A DNA stretch of 64,000 nt from an uncultured Candidatus Saccharibacteria bacterium (GCA_964637575.1 CAZWVU010000003.1:1586-65585); one strand, 5' to 3'; shown: positions 1 to 55,458, numbered from the stretch's first letter. The notes: generated by a model not told the origin, from the sequence alone. A program made the numbers and translations.

Positions 1-7
1 AGAAGAG

Positions 8-538
8 ATGCGTCGCGACGCGTCTCTTCAGCTGGGCACGAATCTGGTATTCGGCGAGGGCAATATCAACTGTGACGTGATGTTTATCGGCGAGGCGCCG
101 GGCGAGCAGGAAGATATCCAAAAAAGACCCTTTGTCGGCCGCGGCGGGCAATTGCTGAATAAAATGCTGGAGAAGATCGGCTGGAAGCGGGAAGACGTGT
201 ATATCACCAACATCGTAAAACGCCGGCCGCCGAATAACCGCGATCCTCTGCCGGAGGAGATTGCCGCCTACAAGCCCTATCTCGCGCGCCAGATCGAGAT
301 CATCAATCCAAAGATTGTCGCGACGCTCGGCCGGTTCTCCATGAATTATTTCAACGAGCAGTTAAAAATCAGCCGCGATCACGGCAAGGTCTTCCGCATG
401 GATAGGCGTCTGCTGGTGCCTTTATTCCACCCTGCGGCGATTCTCCGCAATATGGGAATGATCGGAGACTACGAGAAGGATTTCAAAAAACTTCCCAAAG
501 TAGTGGCGAAGTTTGATGAGCTGATAAAGAAAGCTTGA
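8..538 (+). CDS. Uracil-DNA glycosylase, family 4 (5' end may lie upstream of window)
   Basis: GEAPGEQED motif and overall UDG family 4 pattern in the 176 aa ORF; the ORF begins at the window edge. Confidence 0.8.
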   Translation: MRRDASLQLGTNLVFGEGNINCDVMFIGEAPGEQEDIQKRPFVGRGGQLLNKMLEKIGWKREDVYITNIVKRRPPNNRDPLPEEIAAYKPYLARQIEIINPKIVATLGRFSMNYFNEQLKISRDHGKVFRMDRRLLVPLFHPAAILRNMGMIGDYEKDFKKLPKVVAKFDELIKKA

Positions 539-641
539 CTTTTTAAATAAATTCAGTACAATATTCAACATATTAAGCATTGCGCTTAATTGCGGGTCGC
601 GAGCTCTCGCGGCATAGCACTTTTCCAAACGGAGGTGTGCG

Positions 642-1313
642 ATGGAAAAACCCATCGTGAGCCCCAAGCAGATGCCCGTGCACAAGGTGCTCGGGCGGGT
701 CGCCGAGTGGTACCGGATGATGTCGGAAGCCGGCCTGGCCTTTGACGATCTCCAGCGCGCCATTGACGATCCGGATTTCCGGAGCCGTCTGGTGGAGTTC
801 TGGAAAAAGGACGGGAAAAAAGTGGTTTCCAGCGCCAAGTTTCCAATCTGGCGTACCCTAAAACTCGGCACCGGCCACCAGACCGCCGACGACTTCCGGA
901 AAGTTATCAAGAAGGCCAACTGCAAGATCTCCGACTGGGCCAACGACATCCTCGGCAAACCGGATTTCACCGCATCCACCGAAGAGCAGGAAGTGGAGCT
1001 GGTCGTGGCTTCGGTCGCCGAGCTGGGCTTCCCCAACGGTGCCACCCGCGAAAAGATCTACGCCAAAGCCAAGGAGCTTGGCCTGGATCTCTGTCCGGCA
1101 GAAGTTGGTCCCCAGCTCCGCCTCCAGTACAAGGATCAGCCGATGAACGAATGGCTCCTTATTGGAATGGAGCCCATCACTGACTCGGTCGGCAGTCTCG
1201 AGGTGTTCTACGTTGAGCGCGATGGCGGCGGCCGGTGGCTCAGCAGCTACTGTGACGGCGCCGACGGCGTCTGGCACGGCGCCTACCGCTGGGTGTTTGT
1301 CCGTCGCAAGTAG
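642..1313 (+). CDS. DGR target (variable) protein, 223 aa, no signal peptide
   Basis: The last ~130 nt (VR) are a near-repeat of the downstream TR, with substitutions confined to TR adenine positions. The C-terminus reads ...RWVFVRRK. Confidence 0.8.
   Translation: MEKPIVSPKQMPVHKVLGRVAEWYRMMSEAGLAFDDLQRAIDDPDFRSRLVEFWKKDGKKVVSSAKFPIWRTLKLGTGHQTADDFRKVIKKANCKISDWANDILGKPDFTASTEEQEVELVVASVAELGFPNGATREKIYAKAKELGLDLCPAEVGPQLRLQYKDQPMNEWLLIGMEPITDSVGSLEVFYVERDGGGRWLSSYCDGADGVWHGAYRWVFVRRK
1180..1310 (+). repeat. DGR variable repeat (VR) at 3' end of target gene
   Basis: Aligns base-for-base with 1563-1692. About 21 mismatches, every one at a position that is A in the TR (e.g. gac gac gac -> ggc ggc ggc; aac -> tac/agc/cac). 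The conserved GC-rich 3' end ctgggtgtttgtcc matches an IMH-like region. Confidence 0.85.
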
Positions 1314-1350
1314 CTTCGGACATCTGGAACCCTGGCTCCTGGTTACCCAT

Positions 1351-1389
1351 CCCCCGTGAAGCATTGCTTCACGGGGGATTTCTTTTTTG
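1351..1389 (+). terminator. GC hairpin plus T-run about 40 nt downstream of VR
   Basis: cccccgtgaagcattgcttcacggggg followed by atttctttttt. Reads as a Rho-independent terminator of the target gene. In a DGR context it may also be the stem-loop that aids retrohoming. Confidence 0.6.
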
Positions 1390-1562
1390 TTAGATTATTT
1401 TTGGAGTGGGTTGGTATTTGTTCACGGCTACGGCTTTGAGCGGCCGATTCCAAAATAAAAATGAAGCTATTTGGTGTAGGGCGCTAGGGCATTTTAGATG
1501 CCGAACGCGATACAGCTCCAAGAGCATTCAAGGAGCGGTGGCTTGGAGGGCGCCCTATACGC

Positions 1563-1692
1563 AACTGACTCGGACGGCAATCTCAAGGTGTTCAACGTTG
1601 AACGCAATGACGACGACCGGTGGCTCAACAGCAACTATGACAACGCCGACAACGTCTGGAACGGCGACAACCGCTGGGTGTTTGTCCGACGC
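1563..1692 (+). repeat. DGR template repeat (TR)
   Basis: Non-coding copy of the VR. The ORF-track 'ORF' 1498..1797 is merely its translation. It is Asn/AAC-rich where the VR is variable. A hairpin ctctcccgattatctcgggagag plus T-run follows at 1706-1740. Confidence 0.85.
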
Positions 1693-1714
1693 AACTTGCT
1701 TCATTCTCTCCCGA

Positions 1715-1975
1715 TTATCTCGGGAGAGTTTGTTTTTCAGCCGCTTTTATCCAACTGCCGAGCATTTTGCCAACCTCAACCAGGTTTTTGGATATAAGAA
1801 TATATTTTTTTTCATCCAGCGCCTTTAAATCCCAGGAAAACTGCAAGAAAAACTTTAAAATGTCCAATTTGCCGCTGGTTTTATTGAGAATAGGAAGTTT
1901 GTGTTCTTTATTCAGCTTGCTTGCCACAAAAAGTAATTCCAGAATCTCTATCAGCAAAGAATCTATTTTTATCAC
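1715..1975 (-). CDS. avd: Accessory variability determinant (Avd)-like four-helix-bundle protein
   Basis: The C-terminal LVEVGKMLGSWIKAAEK matches the conserved Avd / TIGR02436-type C-terminal helix. Similarity continues in-frame upstream to ~2080 (…IAIYKLWDNFKNHFPKRFKSL…) with no canonical ATG/GTG/TTG start, so the true start is uncertain. Length would be ~118 aa if extended. Confidence 0.55.
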   Translation of the reverse strand: MIKIDSLLIEILELLFVASKLNKEHKLPILNKTSGKLDILKFFLQFSWDLKALDEKKYILISKNLVEVGKMLGSWIKAAEKQTLPR

Positions 1976-2096
1976 CAGTGATTTGAATCGCTTCGGAAAG
2001 TGGTTTTTAAAATTATCCCAAAGTTTATATATCGCGATAAACTTATTGATAATAATTAAATTTCCCGAGAGAGAGAGAGTTCAAGGATTCTTCATT

Positions 2097-3155
2097 ATGA
2101 AAATTCAATTGCGACATAAGTTGGAAGATATAATTTCCGTGGAAAATCTTTTGATTGCCTGGAAGGAATTCCTGAAAGGGAAGCGAAGCAAGCCCGACGT
2201 CCAGGAATTCGGCCTGAATTTATTTGATAACATTCTACTTCTCCACCAAGAATTAGCCAATGGCAGCTATGTCCACGGCCAATATTATCGTTTCACTATC
2301 TCCGACCCGAAGCCGCGGATCATCCACAAAGCTGAAGTCCGCGACCGCCTCCTCCATCACGCCATCCACCGGGTCCTCTATCCGTTTTTTGAAAAGACAT
2401 TTATCGCCGATTCCTTTTCCTGCCGCGTGGAGAAAGGCACGCACCGCGCCATGAAACGGTTCCGCTCGTTCGCCTATCAGGTAAGCAAGAATCATACCCG
2501 GACCTGTTGGGTGCTGAAGTGCGATATCAAAAAGTTCTTTGACAGTATTGACCATTCCGTTCTGTTGGGGATTCTGGAATCATATATCCCCGACCGGCGC
2601 ACTATTGCGCTTCTCAAGAATATTATCAGCAGTTTTTCCGTGGCGCCCGGCAAGGGCCTGCCGCTCGGCAATCTCACCTCCCAGCTCTTCGCCAATGTCT
2701 ATATGAATCAATTTGATCAGTTTATGAAACACACGCTCAAAGCCCGGCATTATATCCGCTATGCCGACGACTTTGCAGTGCTTTCTCGCGAGAAAGCACT
2801 GCTGGAAGAACTTATTCCCGAGATCGGTGATTTTCTGGATAAGCGACTCAAGCTTATGCTCCACCCCGACAAAGTGTTTATCAAAACCTTCGCCTCCGGC
2901 GTGGATTTTCTCGGCTGGGTTCATTTTCCTGACCATCGGCTACTGCGGACGACTACTAAGAGGAGAATGCTGAAACGCCTTGCCGAGAATCCAAGCAATG
3001 AGGCCAGGCAGTCGTATCTTGGATTATTGAAGCATGGGAATACTATCAAGATACGAAAAAGCGAACCCCTCCTTCCCGCAGACAGGATTGTGGCCCGACG
3101 TCCTGGCGAGGAGAAGGAGGGGTTCGTTGAGATTGCCGCGCTTCGCTCGCAATGA
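2097..3155 (+). CDS. DGR-type reverse transcriptase
   Basis: RT motifs are present: PKPRIIHKA, SCRVEKGTHRA, GLPLGNLTSQLFANVYMNQFD (the DGR-specific Q..F.N.Y in motif 4), and YADDF. AAGGA RBS lies 9 nt before ATG 2097. The annotated ORF start at 1767 is a low-complexity upstream extension. Confidence 0.9.
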   Translation: MKIQLRHKLEDIISVENLLIAWKEFLKGKRSKPDVQEFGLNLFDNILLLHQELANGSYVHGQYYRFTISDPKPRIIHKAEVRDRLLHHAIHRVLYPFFEKTFIADSFSCRVEKGTHRAMKRFRSFAYQVSKNHTRTCWVLKCDIKKFFDSIDHSVLLGILESYIPDRRTIALLKNIISSFSVAPGKGLPLGNLTSQLFANVYMNQFDQFMKHTLKARHYIRYADDFAVLSREKALLEELIPEIGDFLDKRLKLMLHPDKVFIKTFASGVDFLGWVHFPDHRLLRTTTKRRMLKRLAENPSNEARQSYLGLLKHGNTIKIRKSEPLLPADRIVARRPGEEKEGFVEIAALRSQ

Positions 3156-3177
3156 CGACAAGAGTATAATAGAGGTA

Positions 3178-3525
3178 ATGTCATTTTCCGTAGTCTATCT
3201 CTTGCAGCGGTTTTTCTATCGTATCTATGAAGCCATCCGGCACTGGTACAGGGACGGATTTTTGTGGTTTGTCCACCATACGCTGAATGTGCTGGAAGGA
3301 CTGGATCGGACATTCGCCCTCCGGATTACGTTCCGCTACTGGCTGAAACCGCTCTACCAGGATTACACGGTCATCGGCTACATTCTGGGATTTATTTTCC
3401 GGACGTTTCGTTTGGTGATCGGGGGATTTGTCTACCTGGTAATCATACTCGCAGCGCTCCTGCTCTACCTCGTGTGGGCGGCAATCCCGATTTACATTGT
3501 ATATAAAGGATTCAATGGCCAATAG
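3178..3525 (+). CDS. Small hydrophobic membrane protein (hypothetical)
   Basis: 115 aa ORF with 2-3 predicted TM segments; TATAAT-like box sits just upstream. No homology recognised. Confidence 0.4.
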   Translation: MSFSVVYLLQRFFYRIYEAIRHWYRDGFLWFVHHTLNVLEGLDRTFALRITFRYWLKPLYQDYTVIGYILGFIFRTFRLVIGGFVYLVIILAALLLYLVWAAIPIYIVYKGFNGQ

Positions 3526-5965
3526 AGAAATATATTTCAACGATCCGCGGCTGAAAATGACCATCGCCGGCCGGCTGATTGTCCGGCTCGGCGCGTATGC
3601 CGGTTACGCCCTGCTGGTCGTGGGCGCCGCCATGTTTCTTGCCGGCGACGTCCGGCTTCTCCGGGCGTTCGGTCTGCTCCTTATGCTTTTTCTTGCCGAC
3701 CGCGCCGCGCATGCCCGGAAATCGGAAAAAAATATCCTCCGGCTCCCCGAGGGGAAGATCAACGCGGCATCATATTGCGCTCCGGCAAGTTTCGGGGTGC
3801 TGGAGTGGGCGTTTGACCGGGCGCTCTTTTCCGGGAAAAACTTTTACCTGTTTCTGGCGCAACGTTTGCTGAACCGCCACGACGTCCAGGCGGGGCTTGT
3901 CCGCATGGACGTGAAGCCGGGCGACATGAAGAACCGGATCGAGGCGGCGCTCCGGGAATCTTCCGCCGCGAGCACCTCCAAAAATCAGCTCTTGTATAAA
4001 GTGGGCGTGGTAACTGCCCAGGCAATCGGGACGGCGTACCGGCTTCACGATCCGCAGATCGACCCGAAAGATCTTTTTGCGGCACTGGCGCTGGTGGAGG
4101 ACGAGGATTGCAGGCGCCTCTTCGGATCTTTCAACATCGCTCCGGGCGATCTTCAGAATGCGATGGTATTCAGCGCCGGTCCGGGGCGGAACCTCACCGG
4201 ATTTTTGAGCCGGCCCCATAAAACCCGCCACCGGATTATGAACCGGGCCTGGACTGCCCGCCCGACGCCATATCTTGATCAGGTTTCCTCCGATCTTACT
4301 GATCTGGCGCGGCTTGGGCAGATCGGAATGCTCATCGGACACGAGCAGGAATATGACCGCCTCCTGGACGTGCTTTCCCGTCCCGGCCGGCCGAACGCGC
4401 TCCTTGTGGGCGACGCCGGCTCGGGTAAATCGAGCGTGGTGGAGCATCTGGCGTTTGAAATCAGCAAAGACCGGGTCCCGCCGCAGCTGTTTGACCGCCG
4501 TCTGGTGAAGCTGGATATCGGCAGTCTGGTCGCGGGAGCCGGAGAAAGTGAAATGCAGGCGCGGACAAAAAAGATTCTGGAAGAAATTGTCCGGGCCGGA
4601 AATATCATTCTCTATATTCCCGACATCCATAATTTAATGAAAACGGCCGGCGGGCGGGGAGTCTCCGCCGCGGATATGCTGGTGCCCGCGATCAAATCCG
4701 GCGCCTTTTCGGTAATCGGCGGCACGTATTCCCAGGAATACAAGCAGTATATTGAAACGAACAGCGATTTTGCCGGTGGATTTGAAACGATCCGCGTGCA
4801 GGAGGTCAGCGAAGACGAAGCGGCGCAGTATCTGGTGTATGAAAGCCTGCTCCTCGAGCGGCAGTATCGCATCATCATCAGTTTTGCCGCGGTAAAGGAG
4901 GCGGTGGTTCTTGCCAAGCAGTATTTTCACGGGAAACTGCTCCCGGCGAGCGCCGAGGACCTCCTAAAAGAAGCCCTTGCCGACGCGGCGGGCAAACGGC
5001 GGAAAGTGCTTGGCGCGGACGACGTGATCGCGGTCGCGGAAAAGAAAATCAACGTGCCGATCCACAAGGCCGGAAAAGAGGAGGCGGAAACCCTTCTCAA
5101 TCTTGAAGAGGTGATCCATGCGCGGCTGATTGACCAGGAAGAGGCGGTGCGCGCGGTGTCCCGGGCGCTCCGCGAGTACCGGAGCGGCCTTGCCAGAAAA
5201 GGCGGGCCGATCGCCAGTTTTCTTTTTGTCGGCCCCACCGGAGTCGGGAAAACAGAACTTTCCAAAATTCTTGCCGGGATCCAGTTCGGATCGGCGGAGA
5301 TGATGGCGCGGTTCGATATGTCGGAATACCAGGACAAAGGCACGGTAAACCGGCTGCTGGAAAATGTTACCGACGCCATCCGCCAGCGGCCGTACAGCCT
5401 CGTTCTTCTCGATGAATTTGAAAAAGCTCATCCCGACATCCTGAATCTGTTTTTGCAGGTGCTCGACGATGGGCGGCTCACCGACGCCGCCGGGCGCACA
5501 GTGGATTTCCAAAACACCATTGTCATCGCGACCAGCAATGCCAACTCCGATTTTATCAAGGCGGAGCTTGAGAAGGGTGCCGATGTCAGGACGCTGTCGG
5601 AGGCGGTGAAGAAAAAACTCACCGGGTTTTTCAAGCCGGAGCTGTTGAACCGGTTTTCGGGCATCATTGTCTTCAAGCCCCTTTCTTCCGCCGCTATTGA
5701 GCGGATTGCCGGCATCCAGCTTTCGGAAGTGGCGGAAACCCTTCGACAATCCCAGGGGATAGAATTACAATTTGATGATGAGGTAGTGCGGGAGATTGCC
5801 AGGCGGGGGTTTGACCCGGTGTTCGGCGCCCGCCCGCTCCGGGGCGTCATCTCCGAGCAGGTGCGCGGGGTGCTGGCCGAAAAGATTCTCCGCGGGGAAG
5901 TCGCCCGCGGCAGCCGGATTAAAGCAGTAATGAGCAACGGCGCCCTCCAATTCAAAAATGTTTAA
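3515..5965 (+). CDS. Clp/Hsp100-family double AAA+ ATPase (ClpC/ClpB-like) with N-terminal transmembrane segment
   Basis: Two Walker A motifs (GDAGSGKSS; GPTGVGKTE) and LLDEFEKAH. A Clp_N-like repeat follows two N-terminal hydrophobic helices. AAAGGA RBS precedes ATG 3515. Confidence 0.85.
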   Translation: MANREIYFNDPRLKMTIAGRLIVRLGAYAGYALLVVGAAMFLAGDVRLLRAFGLLLMLFLADRAAHARKSEKNILRLPEGKINAASYCAPASFGVLEWAFDRALFSGKNFYLFLAQRLLNRHDVQAGLVRMDVKPGDMKNRIEAALRESSAASTSKNQLLYKVGVVTAQAIGTAYRLHDPQIDPKDLFAALALVEDEDCRRLFGSFNIAPGDLQNAMVFSAGPGRNLTGFLSRPHKTRHRIMNRAWTARPTPYLDQVSSDLTDLARLGQIGMLIGHEQEYDRLLDVLSRPGRPNALLVGDAGSGKSSVVEHLAFEISKDRVPPQLFDRRLVKLDIGSLVAGAGESEMQARTKKILEEIVRAGNIILYIPDIHNLMKTAGGRGVSAADMLVPAIKSGAFSVIGGTYSQEYKQYIETNSDFAGGFETIRVQEVSEDEAAQYLVYESLLLERQYRIIISFAAVKEAVVLAKQYFHGKLLPASAEDLLKEALADAAGKRRKVLGADDVIAVAEKKINVPIHKAGKEEAETLLNLEEVIHARLIDQEEAVRAVSRALREYRSGLARKGGPIASFLFVGPTGVGKTELSKILAGIQFGSAEMMARFDMSEYQDKGTVNRLLENVTDAIRQRPYSLVLLDEFEKAHPDILNLFLQVLDDGRLTDAAGRTVDFQNTIVIATSNANSDFIKAELEKGADVRTLSEAVKKKLTGFFKPELLNRFSGIIVFKPLSSAAIERIAGIQLSEVAETLRQSQGIELQFDDEVVREIARRGFDPVFGARPLRGVISEQVRGVLAEKILRGEVARGSRIKAVMSNGALQFKNV

Positions 5966-6590
5966 CAATATCAATAAAATCATCAAGACAATCGTCGTCG
6001 TCGATTTTTTCTATAACTCGGCGTTCGCGTCCTTCGCGCCGGTGTTCGCGCTGTTCATCACCAGCCACATCCATAACGGCACTGCGGCGGTGGCCGGCTT
6101 CGCGGTTTCGGTCTACTGGATTACGAAATCGATTTTCCAGCTTCCGATCGCCCGCTTCCTCGACCGGACGGACGGCGAGCGCGACGATTACTGGGCAATG
6201 ATGGGCGGATATTTTTTCAGCGGACTCATCCCGTTCGCCTATCTCTTCGTGTCCGAGCCGTGGCATCTGTATCTCGTGAACGGCATCTACGGGTTTATCA
6301 TGGCCTGGACCGTGCCCGCCTGGTACTCCATTTTTACTCGCCACGTGGATAAATGGCGGATCAGTTTCGAGTGGAGCCTGGAAAGCGTGTTCGCCGTCGG
6401 CATTGCCACCGCCGGGGCTTCGGCGCTCGGGGGCTGGCTGGTGGATCAGTTCGGGTTTCGCGTGCTCTTCATCGGTGCCGGAATTATCGGATCGTCCTGC
6501 GCGCTCCTGTTTCTTACCCTGCGGAAGCATCTGTTCCAGCGCGAAAGCGATTCCCGCGCCATTCCGGAGCGGCCGCATCAGCAGAAGTAG
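5958..6590 (+). CDS. MFS-type transporter, N-terminal 6-TM half only
   Basis: Six TM helices and a motif-A-like loop (ARFLDRTDGERDD). The gene ends 4 nt before polX, so no C-terminal half is encoded. Confidence 0.55.
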   Translation: MFNNINKIIKTIVVVDFFYNSAFASFAPVFALFITSHIHNGTAAVAGFAVSVYWITKSIFQLPIARFLDRTDGERDDYWAMMGGYFFSGLIPFAYLFVSEPWHLYLVNGIYGFIMAWTVPAWYSIFTRHVDKWRISFEWSLESVFAVGIATAGASALGGWLVDQFGFRVLFIGAGIIGSSCALLFLTLRKHLFQRESDSRAIPERPHQQK

Positions 6591-18660: not shown

Positions 18661-18686
18661 CGCACTTCGTAGCTTTAGCGAAGAAG

Positions 18687-18990
18687 TGGAAGTGGCCGGA
18701 ATCGAACCGGCGTACAGGACAATTTCAAATCACCATCGACAAGCTTAAGGTTTGCTCCGGTTTGATTTAGTCCCGGTACGGTACGAAGCGGACCGACCGA
18801 GGACGAGCTTGAGATATAACACCGGTGATGGCCCGATCAAGCATCAGGCCGCCGATGGCTTAGGCAATTACGCGAAAGCTAACGCTAGGTTTTGATTAGC
18901 AATTATTAAGGTTTGCCGTAGTTTTACGAGTTGCGGCAGCTCGACTTGCAGTGGTTTGAAGTGTTGCCCAGTCGAGGCCTGTACACTCCC
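18687..18990 (-). ncRNA. ssrA: tmRNA (SsrA)
   Basis: On the minus strand the 5' end is GGGAGUG…. It pairs with the 3' end …CACUUCCA to form a tRNA-like acceptor with G3:U70. T-arm is GCCGGUUCGAUUCCGGC. An internal ORF, GCU AAU CAA AAC CUA GCG UUA GCU UUC GCG UAA (ANQNLALAFA*), sits after a UAAUU pre-resume context. smpB lies immediately upstream. Confidence 0.8.
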
Positions 18991-55363: not shown

Positions 55364-55386
55364 CGCCTTAGTGCTGCATCTTAGTG

Positions 55387-55458
55387 TGGGTGCGCCTGGG
55401 ATCGAACCAGGGACCAGTCGTGTATAAGACGACCGCTCTGCCACTGAGCTACGCACCC
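55387..55458 (-). tRNA. tRNA-Ile (anticodon TAT/UAU)
   Basis: GGGUGCGUAGCUCAGUGGCAGAGC…GUCGU CUUAUAC ACGAC…; anticodon positions 34-36 = UAU. Confidence 0.75.

What the first reader, a model, noticed from the sequence alone, without database searches (positions are those of the whole stretch)
642..3155. Complete diversity-generating retroelement (target-VR / TR / avd / RT) with adenine-specific VR–TR divergence
A ~130 bp segment at the 3' end of the 223 aa gene (VR, 1180-1310) is repeated non-codingly at 1563-1692 (TR). Hand alignment finds ~21 differences, and every one falls where the TR has an A (TR gac gac gac vs VR ggc ggc ggc; TR aac vs VR tac/agc/cac/ggc). The only non-A difference is at the extreme 3' boundary. 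This is the diagnostic signature of DGR mutagenic retrohoming. Downstream lie an Avd-like gene and an RT with the DGR-specific motif-4 (LGNLTSQLFANVYMNQFD) and YADDF. The RT–avd block is markedly AT-rich relative to the ~58% GC flanks, suggesting horizontal acquisition. The target protein has no signal peptide and a short (~45 aa) variable C-terminus ending WVFVRRK. It may be an unusual cytoplasmic ligand-binding scaffold.
Basis: partly seen in the sequence, partly recalled or inferred. Interest (0 to 1): 0.8.

Follow-up and report, generated by a model that had tools for sequence, protein, structure and literature searches.

The report
Complete CPR-type diversity-generating retroelement
This is a genuine, complete diversity-generating retroelement of the type common in ultra-small (CPR/Patescibacteria) bacteria, in which a reverse transcriptase rewrites the last 44 codons of a small lectin-like protein at adenine-templated positions; the element is a known kind, but its template RNA and its avd/RT junction carry conserved features I could not find described.

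Summary
VR 1178-1309 and TR 1563-1694 align without gaps. All 21 differences lie at TR adenines (p about 2e-13), and the first non-A difference is at 1310/1695.

The RT (2097-3155) matches the Bordetella phage DGR RT far better than group II intron RTs. The avd gene is real but lies on the minus strand (1715-2059). This gives the layout target-TR-(avd)-RT, the published "B3" architecture typical of CPR bacteria.

The target belongs to a very large Patescibacteria family with no Pfam domain. Its conserved core is predicted to be a divergent C-type-lectin-like fold, with no signal peptide or membrane segment. At least 34 related loci carry the same cassette with A-specific VR/TR differences. The element itself is therefore a new member of a known kind.

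Three conserved features go beyond the finding.
- TR sits inside a self-contained, covarying RNA of about 335 nt with its own promoter-like element and terminator-like hairpin. Its helices bracket TR exactly, which suggests a permuted version of the Bordetella priming/stop junction.
- A slippage-prone simple repeat sits at the avd/RT junction.
- Short CTNGG repeats follow the VR.

The AT-richness of avd/RT is a family trait, not evidence of recent horizontal transfer.

The parts
535..562 (+). Promoter-like site upstream of the target gene (TTGACT-16-TACAAT)
   Evidence: Consensus scan, 10 of 12 matches. Inferred only.
642..1313 (+). Target (variable protein) gene, 223 aa. It has a poorly conserved helical N-terminus (aa 1-65) and a conserved C-type-lectin-like core (aa about 70-223).
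1178..1309 (+). Variable region (VR), codons 180-223
   Evidence: Ungapped match to TR with 21 mismatches, all at TR adenines.
1315..1343 (+). Four short quasi-periodic CTNGG-type repeats just after the stop codon (CTTCGG, TCTGG, CCTGG, CCTGG). Candidate target-site signal that distinguishes VR from TR.
   Evidence: Three to six such repeats occupy the same place in about 34 related loci and are absent after TR. Function is inferred.
1349..1388 (+). Perfect 15-bp inverted repeat (1349-1363/1365-1379) plus a T-run. It is an intrinsic-terminator-like hairpin in the position of the GC-rich inverted repeat that follows IMH in known DGRs.
   Evidence: The role of such repeats in DGRs is from Wu et al..
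1388..1396 (+). Extended -10-like element TGtTAGATT, the candidate promoter of the TR-containing RNA
   Evidence: The consensus TGnTAnAAT is conserved at this position in the 32-locus alignment.
1403..1451 (+). Leader hairpin module P1. Most relatives have two such modules; the window and L078 have one.
   Evidence: Covarying helices. Also present in the MFE fold.
1460..1473 (+). 5' strand of the long-range helix (AAUGAAGC) plus the near-invariant linker UAUUUG (consensus UACUUG). Candidate cis primer strand.
   Evidence: Pairs with 1692-1705 (I17). RNAalifold predicted the helix unaided. It is 94.5% paired, and 4 of 8 pairs show compensatory change.
1474..1560 (+). Domain closed by a 12-bp helix (1474-1485:1549-1560), with internal hairpin 1488-1502 and helix 1515-1518:1533-1536. 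Candidate cDNA 'stop' helix immediately 5' of TR.
   Evidence: 9 of 12 pairs have compensatory changes and 98.4% are paired. VR/TR homology begins 0-7 nt (mode 1) after this helix in 31 of 32 loci.
1563..1694 (+). Template region (TR), non-coding, 37 adenines
   Evidence: A-containing codons allow about 1e19 protein variants.
1692..1705 (+). 3' strand of the long-range helix (CAA CUU GCUUCAUU), overlapping the TR end and the IMH*-like boundary
   Evidence: The AA of CGCAA is unchanged in 59 of 60 cases across 32 VR/TR pairs, and the next base always differs.
1706..1737 (+). Post-TR 9-bp hairpin (CUCUCCCGA/UCGGGAGAG) plus a U-run. It is terminator-like and sits where the Avd-binding stem-loop lies in the Bordetella phage RNA.
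   Evidence: Found in 78 of 111 motif occurrences with 60 different stem sequences. The position of the Avd-binding stem-loop is from Handa et al..
1715..2059 (-). avd (accessory variability determinant), antisense to TR and RT. The listed ORF starts at GTG 1975, but homology to Avd profiles runs to 2059 with no ATG/GTG/TTG in that stretch.
   Evidence: PF22296 43.5 bits (cut-off 40). NF033474 68.4 bits over profile positions 1-104 (cut-off 80). Translation.
2068..2080 (.). Simple-sequence repeat (GA)6G, which is (CT)6 on the avd strand. It lies between the Avd-homologous region and the RT Shine-Dalgarno/ATG.
   Evidence: The same position holds poly-C/G of 6-13 nt in 54 of 63 related loci and (CA)12 in L100. 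Two pairs of otherwise identical contigs differ only in this tract.
2097..3155 (+). DGR reverse transcriptase, 352 aa
   Evidence: RVT_1 E 1.8e-24. Best solved relative is bRT 8ub7, E 1.7e-48 over residues 6-297. Motif LGNLTSQLFANVY aligns to bRT IGSLTSQLFANVY, and YADD is present.

Best explanation
This is a chromosomal diversity-generating retroelement of the CPR/Patescibacteria type, with architecture target-VR, TR, antisense avd, RT.

Shown here:
- The RT is a DGR-clade RT.
- An Avd homologue is present.
- TR (1563-1694) is a non-coding copy of the last 44 codons of the target gene and differs from VR only at TR adenines.
- The same cassette with the same signature recurs in dozens of Patescibacteria genomes.
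- TR is embedded in a conserved, covarying RNA structure.

Inferred mechanism:
- A discrete RNA of about 335 nt (roughly 1403-1737) is made from its own extended -10 promoter and ends at the post-TR hairpin and U-run.
- RT-Avd binds this RNA and copies TR into cDNA, misincorporating opposite adenines.
- The cDNA replaces VR by mutagenic retrohoming. This recodes up to 23 codons (about 1e19 protein variants) on the ligand-binding face of a small C-type-lectin-like protein that has no export signal.

Most likely RNA logic:
- The long-range helix 1460-1467:1698-1705, extended by UUG 1471-1473:CAA 1692-1694, is the template:primer duplex.
- The 12-bp helix 1474-1485:1549-1560, which ends 2-3 nt before TR, is the cDNA stop.
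- This is the same junction as in the Bordetella phage DGR RNA, but with the primer and stop strands and the protein-binding scaffold placed 5' of TR instead of 3'.
For: A-only VR/TR divergence: 21 of 21 mismatches, p 1.7e-13.

RT: best match is bRT 8ub7, E 1.7e-48, against 3e-18 for group II intron RTs. The group II intron model TIGR04416 scores 145 bits against a cut-off of 300.

Avd: PF22296 is above its cut-off.

Recurrence: 34 of 79 species-level loci carry target(+)-TR(+)-avd(-)-RT(+) with mismatches almost only at A. Multi-target cases exist.

Architecture: it equals the published B3, the CPR norm.

RNA structure: 63 pairs are 97.4% paired, against 40-49% when the 3' partners are slid. 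45 pairs show compensatory change, and 0 of 500 shuffles reach the observed values. The long-range helix was predicted unaided by RNAalifold and by the single-sequence MFE fold (z = -4.2).

TR boundaries: the 5' edge of TR coincides with the 12-bp helix in 31 of 32 loci. The 3' edge of mutagenesis lies just 5' of CAA.

Linkage to the RT/Avd core: the same leader and post-TR elements accompany at least 4 unrelated VR families.
Against: No read-level data, so current activity is not shown.

Full-length Avd lacks a canonical start codon here, and the nearest upstream ATG is out of frame. The element may be switched off at present.

The primer assignment is an inference from topology. The UUG:CAA extension is invariant and so carries no covariation evidence. 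The unchanged AA of CGCAA could also reflect selection for the terminal Lys codon.

Transcript ends were not measured. The post-TR hairpin could be an Avd-binding stem-loop with read-through into antisense avd, rather than a terminator.
Confidence: 0.93

Rival explanations
1. The cassette is a real DGR but is currently silent. In this genome avd cannot be translated in full length, so retrohoming is off, either by decay or by a reversible repeat-length switch.
For: There is no ATG/GTG/TTG between the upstream stop (2080) and GTG 1975, although Avd homology starts at 2059. The upstream ATG is in frame +1 and its reading frame stops early; one extra CT unit in the (CT)6 repeat would put it in frame.
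Against: The RT ORF is intact with its catalytic motifs. There are zero non-A differences in 132 nt of VR/TR, which argues against long inactivity. Non-canonical starts (ATT/ATA) are possible. About two thirds of related loci also lack an in-frame upstream ATG, so the true start may lie elsewhere.
Confidence: 0.25
2. The conserved leader is only a protein-binding or stabilising scaffold. Priming works as in Bordetella phage, from RNA 3' of TR, with transcription reading through the post-TR hairpin into antisense avd.
For: In Bordetella phage all priming elements lie 3' of TR, and a stem-loop right after TR binds Avd (Handa et al.). The post-TR hairpin here occupies that position. The sequence 3' of the hairpin is conserved, although it is also the Avd C-terminal coding sequence on the other strand.
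Against: The hairpin is followed by a conserved U-run, like an intrinsic terminator. Only about 45 nt lie between TR and that point. The leader strand pairs with the sequence immediately 3' of the mutagenesis boundary, with covariation, which is the geometry of a template:primer duplex. The leader and TR are bracketed by helices exactly at the TR edges.
Confidence: 0.3
3. This is not a DGR. The 132-nt repeat is an ordinary partial gene duplication or gene conversion next to an unrelated retroelement RT (group II intron, retron or defence RT).
For: The RT also gives sub-threshold hits to group II intron, retron and DRT models, as any RT of this superfamily would.
Against: All 21 mismatches lie at TR adenines (p 1.7e-13). 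No group II intron or retron RNA was found by Rfam. All NCBIfam RT models score far below their cut-offs, whereas bRT is the best solved relative by 30 orders of magnitude. An Avd gene is present. The same cassette and signature occur in at least 34 other loci.
Confidence: 0.01

Closest known systems
CPR/DPANN diversity-generating retroelements: architecture B3 'TR-(avd)-RT' of Wu et al. 2018 (PMC5758913); DGR clade 2 of Roux et al. 2021 (PMC8144416); first surveyed by Paul et al. 2017 (cited there, not readable here)
   Same: Gene order and strands (target, TR, reversed avd, RT). Host group: nearly all relatives are Patescibacteria MAGs. The target is a small protein without a signal peptide, TM segment or known domain. 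VR is C-terminal. Substitutions are A-specific.
   Different: Nothing in the gene content differs. In the papers I could read I found no description of three features: the covarying leader RNA that brackets TR, the simple-sequence repeat at the avd/RT junction, and the CTNGG repeats after VR. Wu et al. left the CPR VR classes (UVR1-6) without a fold assignment. Here the fold is predicted to be C-type-lectin-like.
Bordetella phage BPP-1 DGR (mtd-avd-TR-brt), the mechanistic paradigm; bRT-Avd-RNA structures 8ub7 and related entries (Handa et al., bioRxiv 10.1101/2023.10.23.563531)
   Same: The RT is homologous (E 1.7e-48) and shares the IGxxxSQLFANVY motif. Both have Avd, A-mutagenesis, a 3'-terminal VR followed by an inverted repeat and a stem-loop immediately after TR. 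In both, a helix sits just upstream of TR and a short duplex at the TR 3' end flanks the start of cDNA synthesis.
   Different: Here avd is on the opposite strand and 3' of TR. The RNA elements that form the two junction helices lie 5' of TR in a leader of about 160 nt, whereas in BPP-1 they lie in the 140-nt spacer 3' of TR. The host is cellular and chromosomal, not a phage. The target is not a tail fibre.
C-type-lectin-fold DGR variable proteins (Mtd, Treponema TvpA 2y3c) and FGE-sulfatase-type domains
Simple-sequence-repeat contingency loci (phase variation by slipped-strand mispairing in Neisseria, Haemophilus, Campylobacter)
   Same: A homopolymer or dinucleotide repeat lies at the 5' end of a gene, within a divergent intergenic region. 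Its length differs between otherwise identical sequences.
   Different: No experimental or read-level evidence of switching exists. It is unclear whether the repeat is translated, whether it sits in the RT 5' UTR, or both. I found no link between such repeats and DGRs in the literature searched.

Membership tests
Diversity-generating retroelement (DGR) | Reverse transcriptase of the DGR clade, with the motif-4 signature [LIV]GxxxSQ and YxDD | tested here: met
   Best solved relative is bRT 8ub7, E 1.7e-48, against 3e-18 for the best group II intron RT. LGNLTSQLFANVY aligns to bRT IGSLTSQLFANVY, and YADD is present. No tree was built.
Diversity-generating retroelement (DGR) | TR/VR near-repeat whose differences are confined to adenines of TR | tested here: met
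   21 of 21 mismatches in 132 nt lie at TR A, hypergeometric p 1.7e-13.
Diversity-generating retroelement (DGR) | VR inside (usually at the 3' end of) a protein-coding gene; TR non-coding and next to the RT | tested here: met
   VR is codons 180-223 of ORF 642-1313. TR lies 250 nt downstream of the gene and 400 nt upstream of the RT.
Diversity-generating retroelement (DGR) | Accessory variability determinant (Avd) gene | tested here: met
   PF22296 bAvd 43.5 bits (cut-off 40). NF033474 matches full length at 68.4 bits, below its cut-off of 80. It lies on the minus strand and has no canonical start for the full-length protein.
Diversity-generating retroelement (DGR) | IMH/IMH*-type 3' boundary and a GC-rich inverted repeat downstream of VR but not of TR | tested here: met
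   Homology ends at 1309/1694, after an A-free stretch. VR and TR flanks differ from 1310/1695 onward. A perfect 15-bp inverted repeat at 1349-1379 follows VR only. Function was not tested.
Diversity-generating retroelement (DGR) | Ongoing mutagenic retrohoming (VR heterogeneity within a population) | not testable with these tools
   No reads are available. The only other copy found (Logan contig from SRR8931233) encodes the identical protein.
CPR-type DGR, architecture B3 (TR-(avd)-RT) of Wu et al. 2018 | Order TR, avd on the reverse strand, RT; target upstream on the same strand as TR | tested here: met
   Coordinates. The same arrangement occurs in 35 of 79 related loci.
DGR clade 2 (Patescibacteria) of Roux et al. 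2021 | RT groups phylogenetically with cellular CPR DGR RTs | tested here: inconclusive
   All close RT relatives retrieved lie in Patescibacteria-type MAG or metagenome loci, and none were found in IMG/VR contigs. No phylogeny against the published clades was possible.
C-type lectin (CLec) fold variable protein | VR-bearing domain adopts the CLec fold | tested here: inconclusive
Group II intron / retron retroelements | Intron RNA domains or msr/msd RNA; RT reaching the family thresholds; maturase/X domain | tested here: not met
   No Rfam match in 1-6000 at E of 1 or below, nor at gathering score in the window. TIGR04416 scores 145 bits against 300, and retron models 65 bits against 235.
Phase-variable (simple-sequence-repeat) contingency locus | Repeat tract in a 5' coding or promoter region whose length varies among otherwise identical genomes and changes expression | tested here: inconclusive
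   A tract is present at the same site in 56 of 63 loci. Two contig pairs with 0 mismatches over 8.5 and 6.5 kb differ only in tract length. The expression effect was not tested, and homopolymer assembly error is not excluded.

The most novel reading that the evidence does not exclude
CPR 'B3' DGRs, including this one, may run on a self-contained template RNA that is a circular permutation of the Bordetella phage DGR RNA.

In this reading the cis-primer strand (AAUGAAGC-UAUUUG, 1460-1473), the cDNA-stop helix (1474-1485:1549-1560) and the protein-binding hairpin modules all lie 5' of TR. Only a short hairpin and U-tail lie 3' of TR, and cDNA synthesis is bracketed exactly by the two covarying helices.

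A second, independent novelty is not excluded. The slippage-prone repeat at the avd/RT junction ((GA)6G here, poly-G/C of 6-13 nt in most relatives) could make the mutagenesis machinery itself phase-variable. That would be a hypermutator gated by a hypermutable switch.

The probability given is for the RNA part (the leader supplies the primer and stop). For the repeat acting as a real on/off switch I would say about 0.35.
Probability: 0.4. Interest if true: 0.75.

Novelty: new member of a known kind. Interest (0 to 1): 0.5.

Why it matters
As a DGR, this locus adds one more member to a well-documented class. CPR bacteria are known to be rich in DGRs whose small, domain-less targets remain functionally opaque.

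Three things make the locus and its relatives useful.

1. They give a fold hypothesis (a minimal C-type-lectin-like domain) for a very large unannotated Patescibacteria family that is a recurrent DGR target. The family has 6424 clusters at 50% identity and no Pfam model.

2. They define a compact, covariation-supported DGR RNA with its own promoter and terminator. Its helices coincide with the two ends of TR. If the leader supplies the primer, the priming/stop junction solved for the Bordetella phage is a conserved module that tolerates permutation. That would help predict cDNA boundaries in uncultured DGRs and help design minimal DGR-based mutagenesis tools.

3. A simple-sequence repeat at the avd/RT junction suggests a testable way in which cells could switch diversification on and off. 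How DGR activity is regulated is an open question.

Tried and rejected
- My first local alignment picked a gapped path and gave meaningless mismatch counts. It was redone ungapped at offset 385.
- Searched for further VRs, RTs or target paralogues in the 64-kb window: none.
- Rfam found no family for the leader, TR or hairpin. The weak hits (NsiR1, snoR31, mir-922, RAGATH-25) are far below gathering scores and were dismissed.
- The group II intron, retron and DRT readings of the RT were rejected on scores.
- Tried to link the target to known families by Pfam, NCBIfam, a PDB sequence profile and Pfam scans of longer relatives: all empty.
- The AFDB fold library was unavailable.
- Paul et al. 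2017 could not be read, and Wu et al.'s supplements are not held. I therefore could not check which published 'UVR' class this VR belongs to, or whether the leader RNA was noted there.
- The leader motif gave 11 matches in IMG/VR with no RT, Avd or target nearby. I treat these as chance, so there is no sign of phage carriage.
- The idea that the upstream antisense ATG (the complement of the RT His7 codon) is the regular avd start was tested by frame counting. It is in frame in about 36% of loci, close to chance, so it gives no support on its own.
- The horizontal-transfer inference from GC content was rejected as a family-wide compositional pattern.
Full report
**1. The observation**

VR and TR were aligned without gaps at offset 385. 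VR 1178-1309 pairs with TR 1563-1694 and shows 21 mismatches. Every one falls where TR has an adenine (A>G 13, A>T 5, A>C 3). With 37 A in 133 TR bases the hypergeometric probability is 1.7e-13. The first non-A difference is at 1310/1695, the third base of the last codon. The repeat finder recovered the same pair independently (D1, 1179-1317/1564-1702).

Its TR coordinates are 2-3 nt out of register with its VR coordinates. No other sequence in the 64 kb matches TR when adenines are treated as wildcards. There is also no second RT, Avd or target copy.

**2. The genes**

- **Target.** ORF 642-1313 (223 aa) carries the VR as its last 44 codons.
- **RT.** ORF 2097-3155 is a reverse transcriptase (RVT_1, E 1.8e-24).
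  - Its best solved relative is the Bordetella phage DGR RT (8ub7, E 1.7e-48 over residues 6-297). The best group II intron RT scores 3e-18 and retron-type RTs about 1e-16.
  - The motif LGNLTSQLFANVY aligns with bRT IGSLTSQLFANVY.
  - All NCBIfam RT models (group II, retron, DRT, Abi) score far below their cut-offs.
  - Rfam finds no intron or retron RNA.
- **Avd.** The Avd homologue lies on the minus strand, 1715-2059.
  - PF22296 scores 43.5 bits, above its cut-off of 40.
  - NF033474 aligns over its full length at 68.4 bits, below its cut-off of 80.
  - The order is therefore target(+), TR(+), avd(-), RT(+).
  - Wu et al. 2018 call this architecture B3, 'TR-(avd)-RT'. They report that it accounts for 90% of CPR DGRs and is nearly absent elsewhere (PMC5758913).

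**3. The target protein**

- **No known family.** It has no Pfam or NCBIfam match.
- **No export or membrane signal.** There is no hydrophobic stretch: the maximum 19-residue Kyte-Doolittle mean is 0.92.
- **A very large family.**
  - More than 1456 clusters at 90% identity match it, almost all unnamed or 'hypothetical' proteins of Parcubacteria/Patescibacteria.
  - 279 GTDB species representatives encode a relative.
  - A profile search finds 6424 clusters at 50% identity.
  - None of nine longer relatives carries a Pfam domain.
- **Domain layout.** The conserved part starts near residue 70 (W-K/R-T-I/L-K-L-G-T-G). The N-terminal 50-70 residues vary between members, and some members are tandem fusions of two cores.
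- **Predicted fold.**
  - An AlphaFold model built from 78 sequences is confident for residues 70-223 (pLDDT above 90; mean 83.7).
  - Foldseek ranks C-type lectins first but not significantly (E 0.07).
  - A sequence profile finds nothing in the PDB.
  - I therefore read the core as a divergent, minimal C-type-lectin-like domain. This is a prediction.
- **Coding capacity.** The TR adenines sit mostly in first and second codon positions (eight AAC and two AAT codons). They allow about 1e19 protein variants.
- **Relation to the literature.** Roux et al. 2021 noted that CPR (clade 2) targets typically lack transmembrane or other recognisable domains. They left open whether these are truly non-membrane proteins (PMC8144416). 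This target fits that description and is not unusual for its group.

**4. Recurrence**

In 79 loci fetched around relatives of the target, 35 contain an RT and 40 an Avd, and Avd is always antisense and between target and RT. In 34 of them a TR follows the target, and the VR/TR mismatches are all or nearly all at TR adenines.

Some elements serve several targets.
- L062 has two tandem targets that both differ from one TR only at A.
- L006 has two targets 3 kb apart.
- The TR of L057 matches two distant paralogues in the same MAG, mostly at A.

About half of the family members have no RT within 6 kb. They may be remote targets or undiversified paralogues.

**5. The TR-containing RNA**

*Alignment and structure.* The 250-400 nt between the target's terminator and TR are strongly conserved. 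I aligned leader+TR+downstream from the window and 31 loci (A2). RNAalifold predicted the following elements:
- one or two similar hairpin modules;
- a 12-bp helix closing a small multi-helix domain;
- a helix that spans TR, in which leader AAUGAAG pairs with CUUCAUU immediately 3' of TR.

*Pair counts.* For a 63-pair structure, 97.4% of cells are paired, against 40-49% when the 3' partners are slid by 1-3 columns. 45 pairs show compensatory changes, and 0 of 500 shuffles reach the observed values. Controls of this kind can be inflated by relatedness, but the slid controls keep relatedness and are far lower. The long-range helix is 94.5% paired, with compensatory change at 4 of 8 pairs (for example L057 AAAUAGAGA/UUUCUAUUU).

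*Window coordinates.*

| Element | Coordinates |
|---|---|
| Extended -10-like TGtTAGATT | 1388-1396 |
| Hairpin module P1 | 1403-1451 |
| Long-range helix | 1460-1467:1698-1705 (also I17) |
| Near-invariant linker UAUUUG | 1468-1473 |
| 12-bp helix | 1474-1485:1549-1560 |
| TR | 1563-1694 |
| Post-TR hairpin | 1706-1728 |
| U-run | to 1737 |

*Single-sequence fold.* The MFE fold of 1403-1740 reproduces these elements (z = -4.2). It also pairs the A-run before the leader strand with the terminal U-run.

*Post-TR hairpin.* A hairpin with a U-run is found in 78 of 111 motif occurrences, with 60 different stem sequences.

*No curated family.* Rfam 15 has no matching family.

**6. The RNA belongs to the RT/Avd core, not to the target**

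An exact-pattern scan for the leader motif AAATGAAGMTAYTTGGTRYA found at least 120 metagenome stretches. Of 50 loci with enough downstream DNA, 28 have antisense avd and an RT at fixed distances.

These loci carry at least four unrelated VR/TR families. In each case the VR lies 220-410 nt upstream, the mismatches are A-specific, and the same CUUCAUUU-hairpin follows TR.

The 11 matches in IMG/VR have no RT, Avd or target nearby and serve as a measure of chance matches.

**7. The helices coincide with the edges of information transfer**

- **5' edge.** The VR/TR homology begins 0-7 nt (mode 1) after the 3' strand of the 12-bp helix in 31 of 32 loci.
- **3' edge.**
  - The two adenines of the conserved CGCAA are unchanged in 59 of 60 cases.
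  - Adenines a few bases upstream are mutated in 2 of 3 cases.
  - The next base always differs between VR and TR, and the preceding G is invariant.
  - Selection on the terminal Lys codon could contribute to the unchanged adenines.

**8. Comparison with the Bordetella phage RNA**

Handa et al. (bioRxiv 10.1101/2023.10.23.563531) describe the following for that RNA:
- cDNA is primed from spacer A56.
- Spacer 50-56 pairs with TR 118-124.
- The next spacer segment (59-70) pairs with the sequence just upstream of TR, forming a 'stop' duplex.
- An Avd-binding stem-loop directly follows TR.

Their survey of other DGRs looked only 40 nt upstream and 100 nt downstream of TR.

The CPR RNA has the same junction: strand t, a short linker, strand a, with a' just before TR and t' just after it. 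The difference is that t-linker-a lies in the 5' leader. I therefore propose that the leader supplies the primer and the stop, making this a circular permutation of the phage RNA. This step is inferred. The UUG:CAA extension is invariant and carries no covariation information. The rival is priming from read-through RNA 3' of the hairpin, and it is not excluded.

**9. Downstream of VR**

After the stop codon, all related loci carry three to six short repeats of the type CCTTGG/CTTTG/CTCGG spaced 7-11 nt apart, followed by a GC-rich hairpin with a T-run. In the window the repeats are at 1315-1343, and the hairpin is a perfect 15-bp inverted repeat at 1349-1379. TR lacks both.

In known DGRs an inverted repeat after IMH marks the recipient (Wu et al.). 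The repeats may play a similar role here. This was not tested.

**10. The avd/RT junction**

- **No canonical start.** The Avd-homologous reading frame has no ATG, GTG or TTG between the upstream stop (2080) and GTG 1975.
- **A repeat at the 5' edge.**
  - Directly 5' of the homologous region on the avd strand lies (CT)6. On the plus strand this is (GA)6G at 2068-2080, 16 nt before the RT ATG.
  - At the same place, 54 of 63 related loci have poly-C of 6-13 nt (mode 9-10).
  - L100 has (CA)12, and 7 loci have no repeat.
- **Length differences between identical contigs.** Two pairs of independently assembled contigs differ only in this tract. One pair is identical over 8503 bp and differs G10 against G9. 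The other is identical over 6451 bp and differs G10 against G8.
- **Frame of the upstream ATG.** The ATG upstream of the tract is in frame with Avd in about 36% of loci, close to chance. Frame statistics are therefore uninformative. In the window one extra CT unit would create an ATG-initiated full-length Avd.
- **Reading.** A slipped-strand on/off switch of avd (or an effect on the RT 5' UTR) is plausible but unproven. Homopolymer assembly error is an alternative. I found no paper in the library linking DGRs with such repeats.

**11. Composition**

avd is 33.9% GC, RT 49.8%, the target 60.4% and the window 53.9%. Across 35 related loci, avd and RT average 5 points below their flanks, and the target averages 14 points above in 34 of 35 loci. 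The contrast is a feature of the cassette family. It does not show recent acquisition by this genome.

**12. Verdict**

The finding is a true, complete DGR of the known CPR type and is a new member of a known kind. Its activity at present is not shown, and the avd start problem leaves room for an 'off' state.

The added value lies in three things:
- the fold hypothesis for a very large unannotated target family;
- the covariation-supported architecture of the template RNA;
- the repeat at the avd/RT junction.

The last two are the most novel readings and need experiments.

Noticed in passing
window 2068-2080 (and the same position in L002-L078, L082-L160): A simple-sequence repeat sits at the avd/RT divergent junction. 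It is (GA)6G here, poly-G/C of 6-13 nt in 54 of 63 related loci and (CA)12 in L100. Two contig pairs with zero mismatches over 8.5 and 6.5 kb differ only in this tract. It may be a phase-variation switch for avd or RT.
   Followed up: partly
window 1315-1343 (and after the target stop codon in about 34 loci): Three to six quasi-periodic CTNGG/CTTTG repeats lie between the VR stop codon and the terminator hairpin and are absent after TR. The motif resembles the invariant leader sequence UACUUGG. It may be a recipient-site signal.
   Followed up: partly
window 642-3155 and 35 related loci: There is a systematic compositional split within the cassette. The target gene averages 14 GC points above its flanks (34 of 35 loci), while avd and RT average 5 points below. 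The high GC of the whole target gene, not only of the VR, is unexplained.
   Followed up: partly
window 1452-1459 with 1729-1737: The A-run before the leader strand can pair with the U-run after the post-TR hairpin in the MFE fold. This would turn the hairpin into a branch of a longer closing helix and sequester the RNA 3' end. Both runs are conserved but invariant, so there is no covariation evidence.
   Followed up: no
window 2775-2802 and 3062-3126: A perfect 14+14 nt palindrome lies inside the RT coding region (GCAGTGCTTTCTCG/CGAGAAAGCACTGC). An imperfect 26-nt inverted repeat lies within the last 30 codons of the RT ORF, a tail that RT relatives mostly lack. Their significance is unknown.
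   Followed up: no
L062, L006, L057/L070/L076; proteins P0003, P0010: Some relatives have two tandem or distant target genes served by one TR. Some proteins are fusions of two complete target cores. About half of the family members have no RT within 6 kb.
   Followed up: partly
L080 (Logan contig SRR8931233_118612): The only other contig encoding the identical target protein ends about 330 nt after the gene, in the leader (window about 1505-1645), before the end of TR. This may be an assembly break caused by the VR/TR repeat, though that was not tested. The same run could be mined for VR and repeat-length heterogeneity.
   Followed up: no
window 18684-18990, 55386-55458 and other tRNA sites: The window holds a tmRNA (tag ANQNLALAFA) and six tRNAs, including tRNA-Ile(UAU). 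Together with UDG and ClpB-like genes flanking the DGR, this indicates an ordinary chromosomal context with no sign of a phage or plasmid.
   Followed up: no
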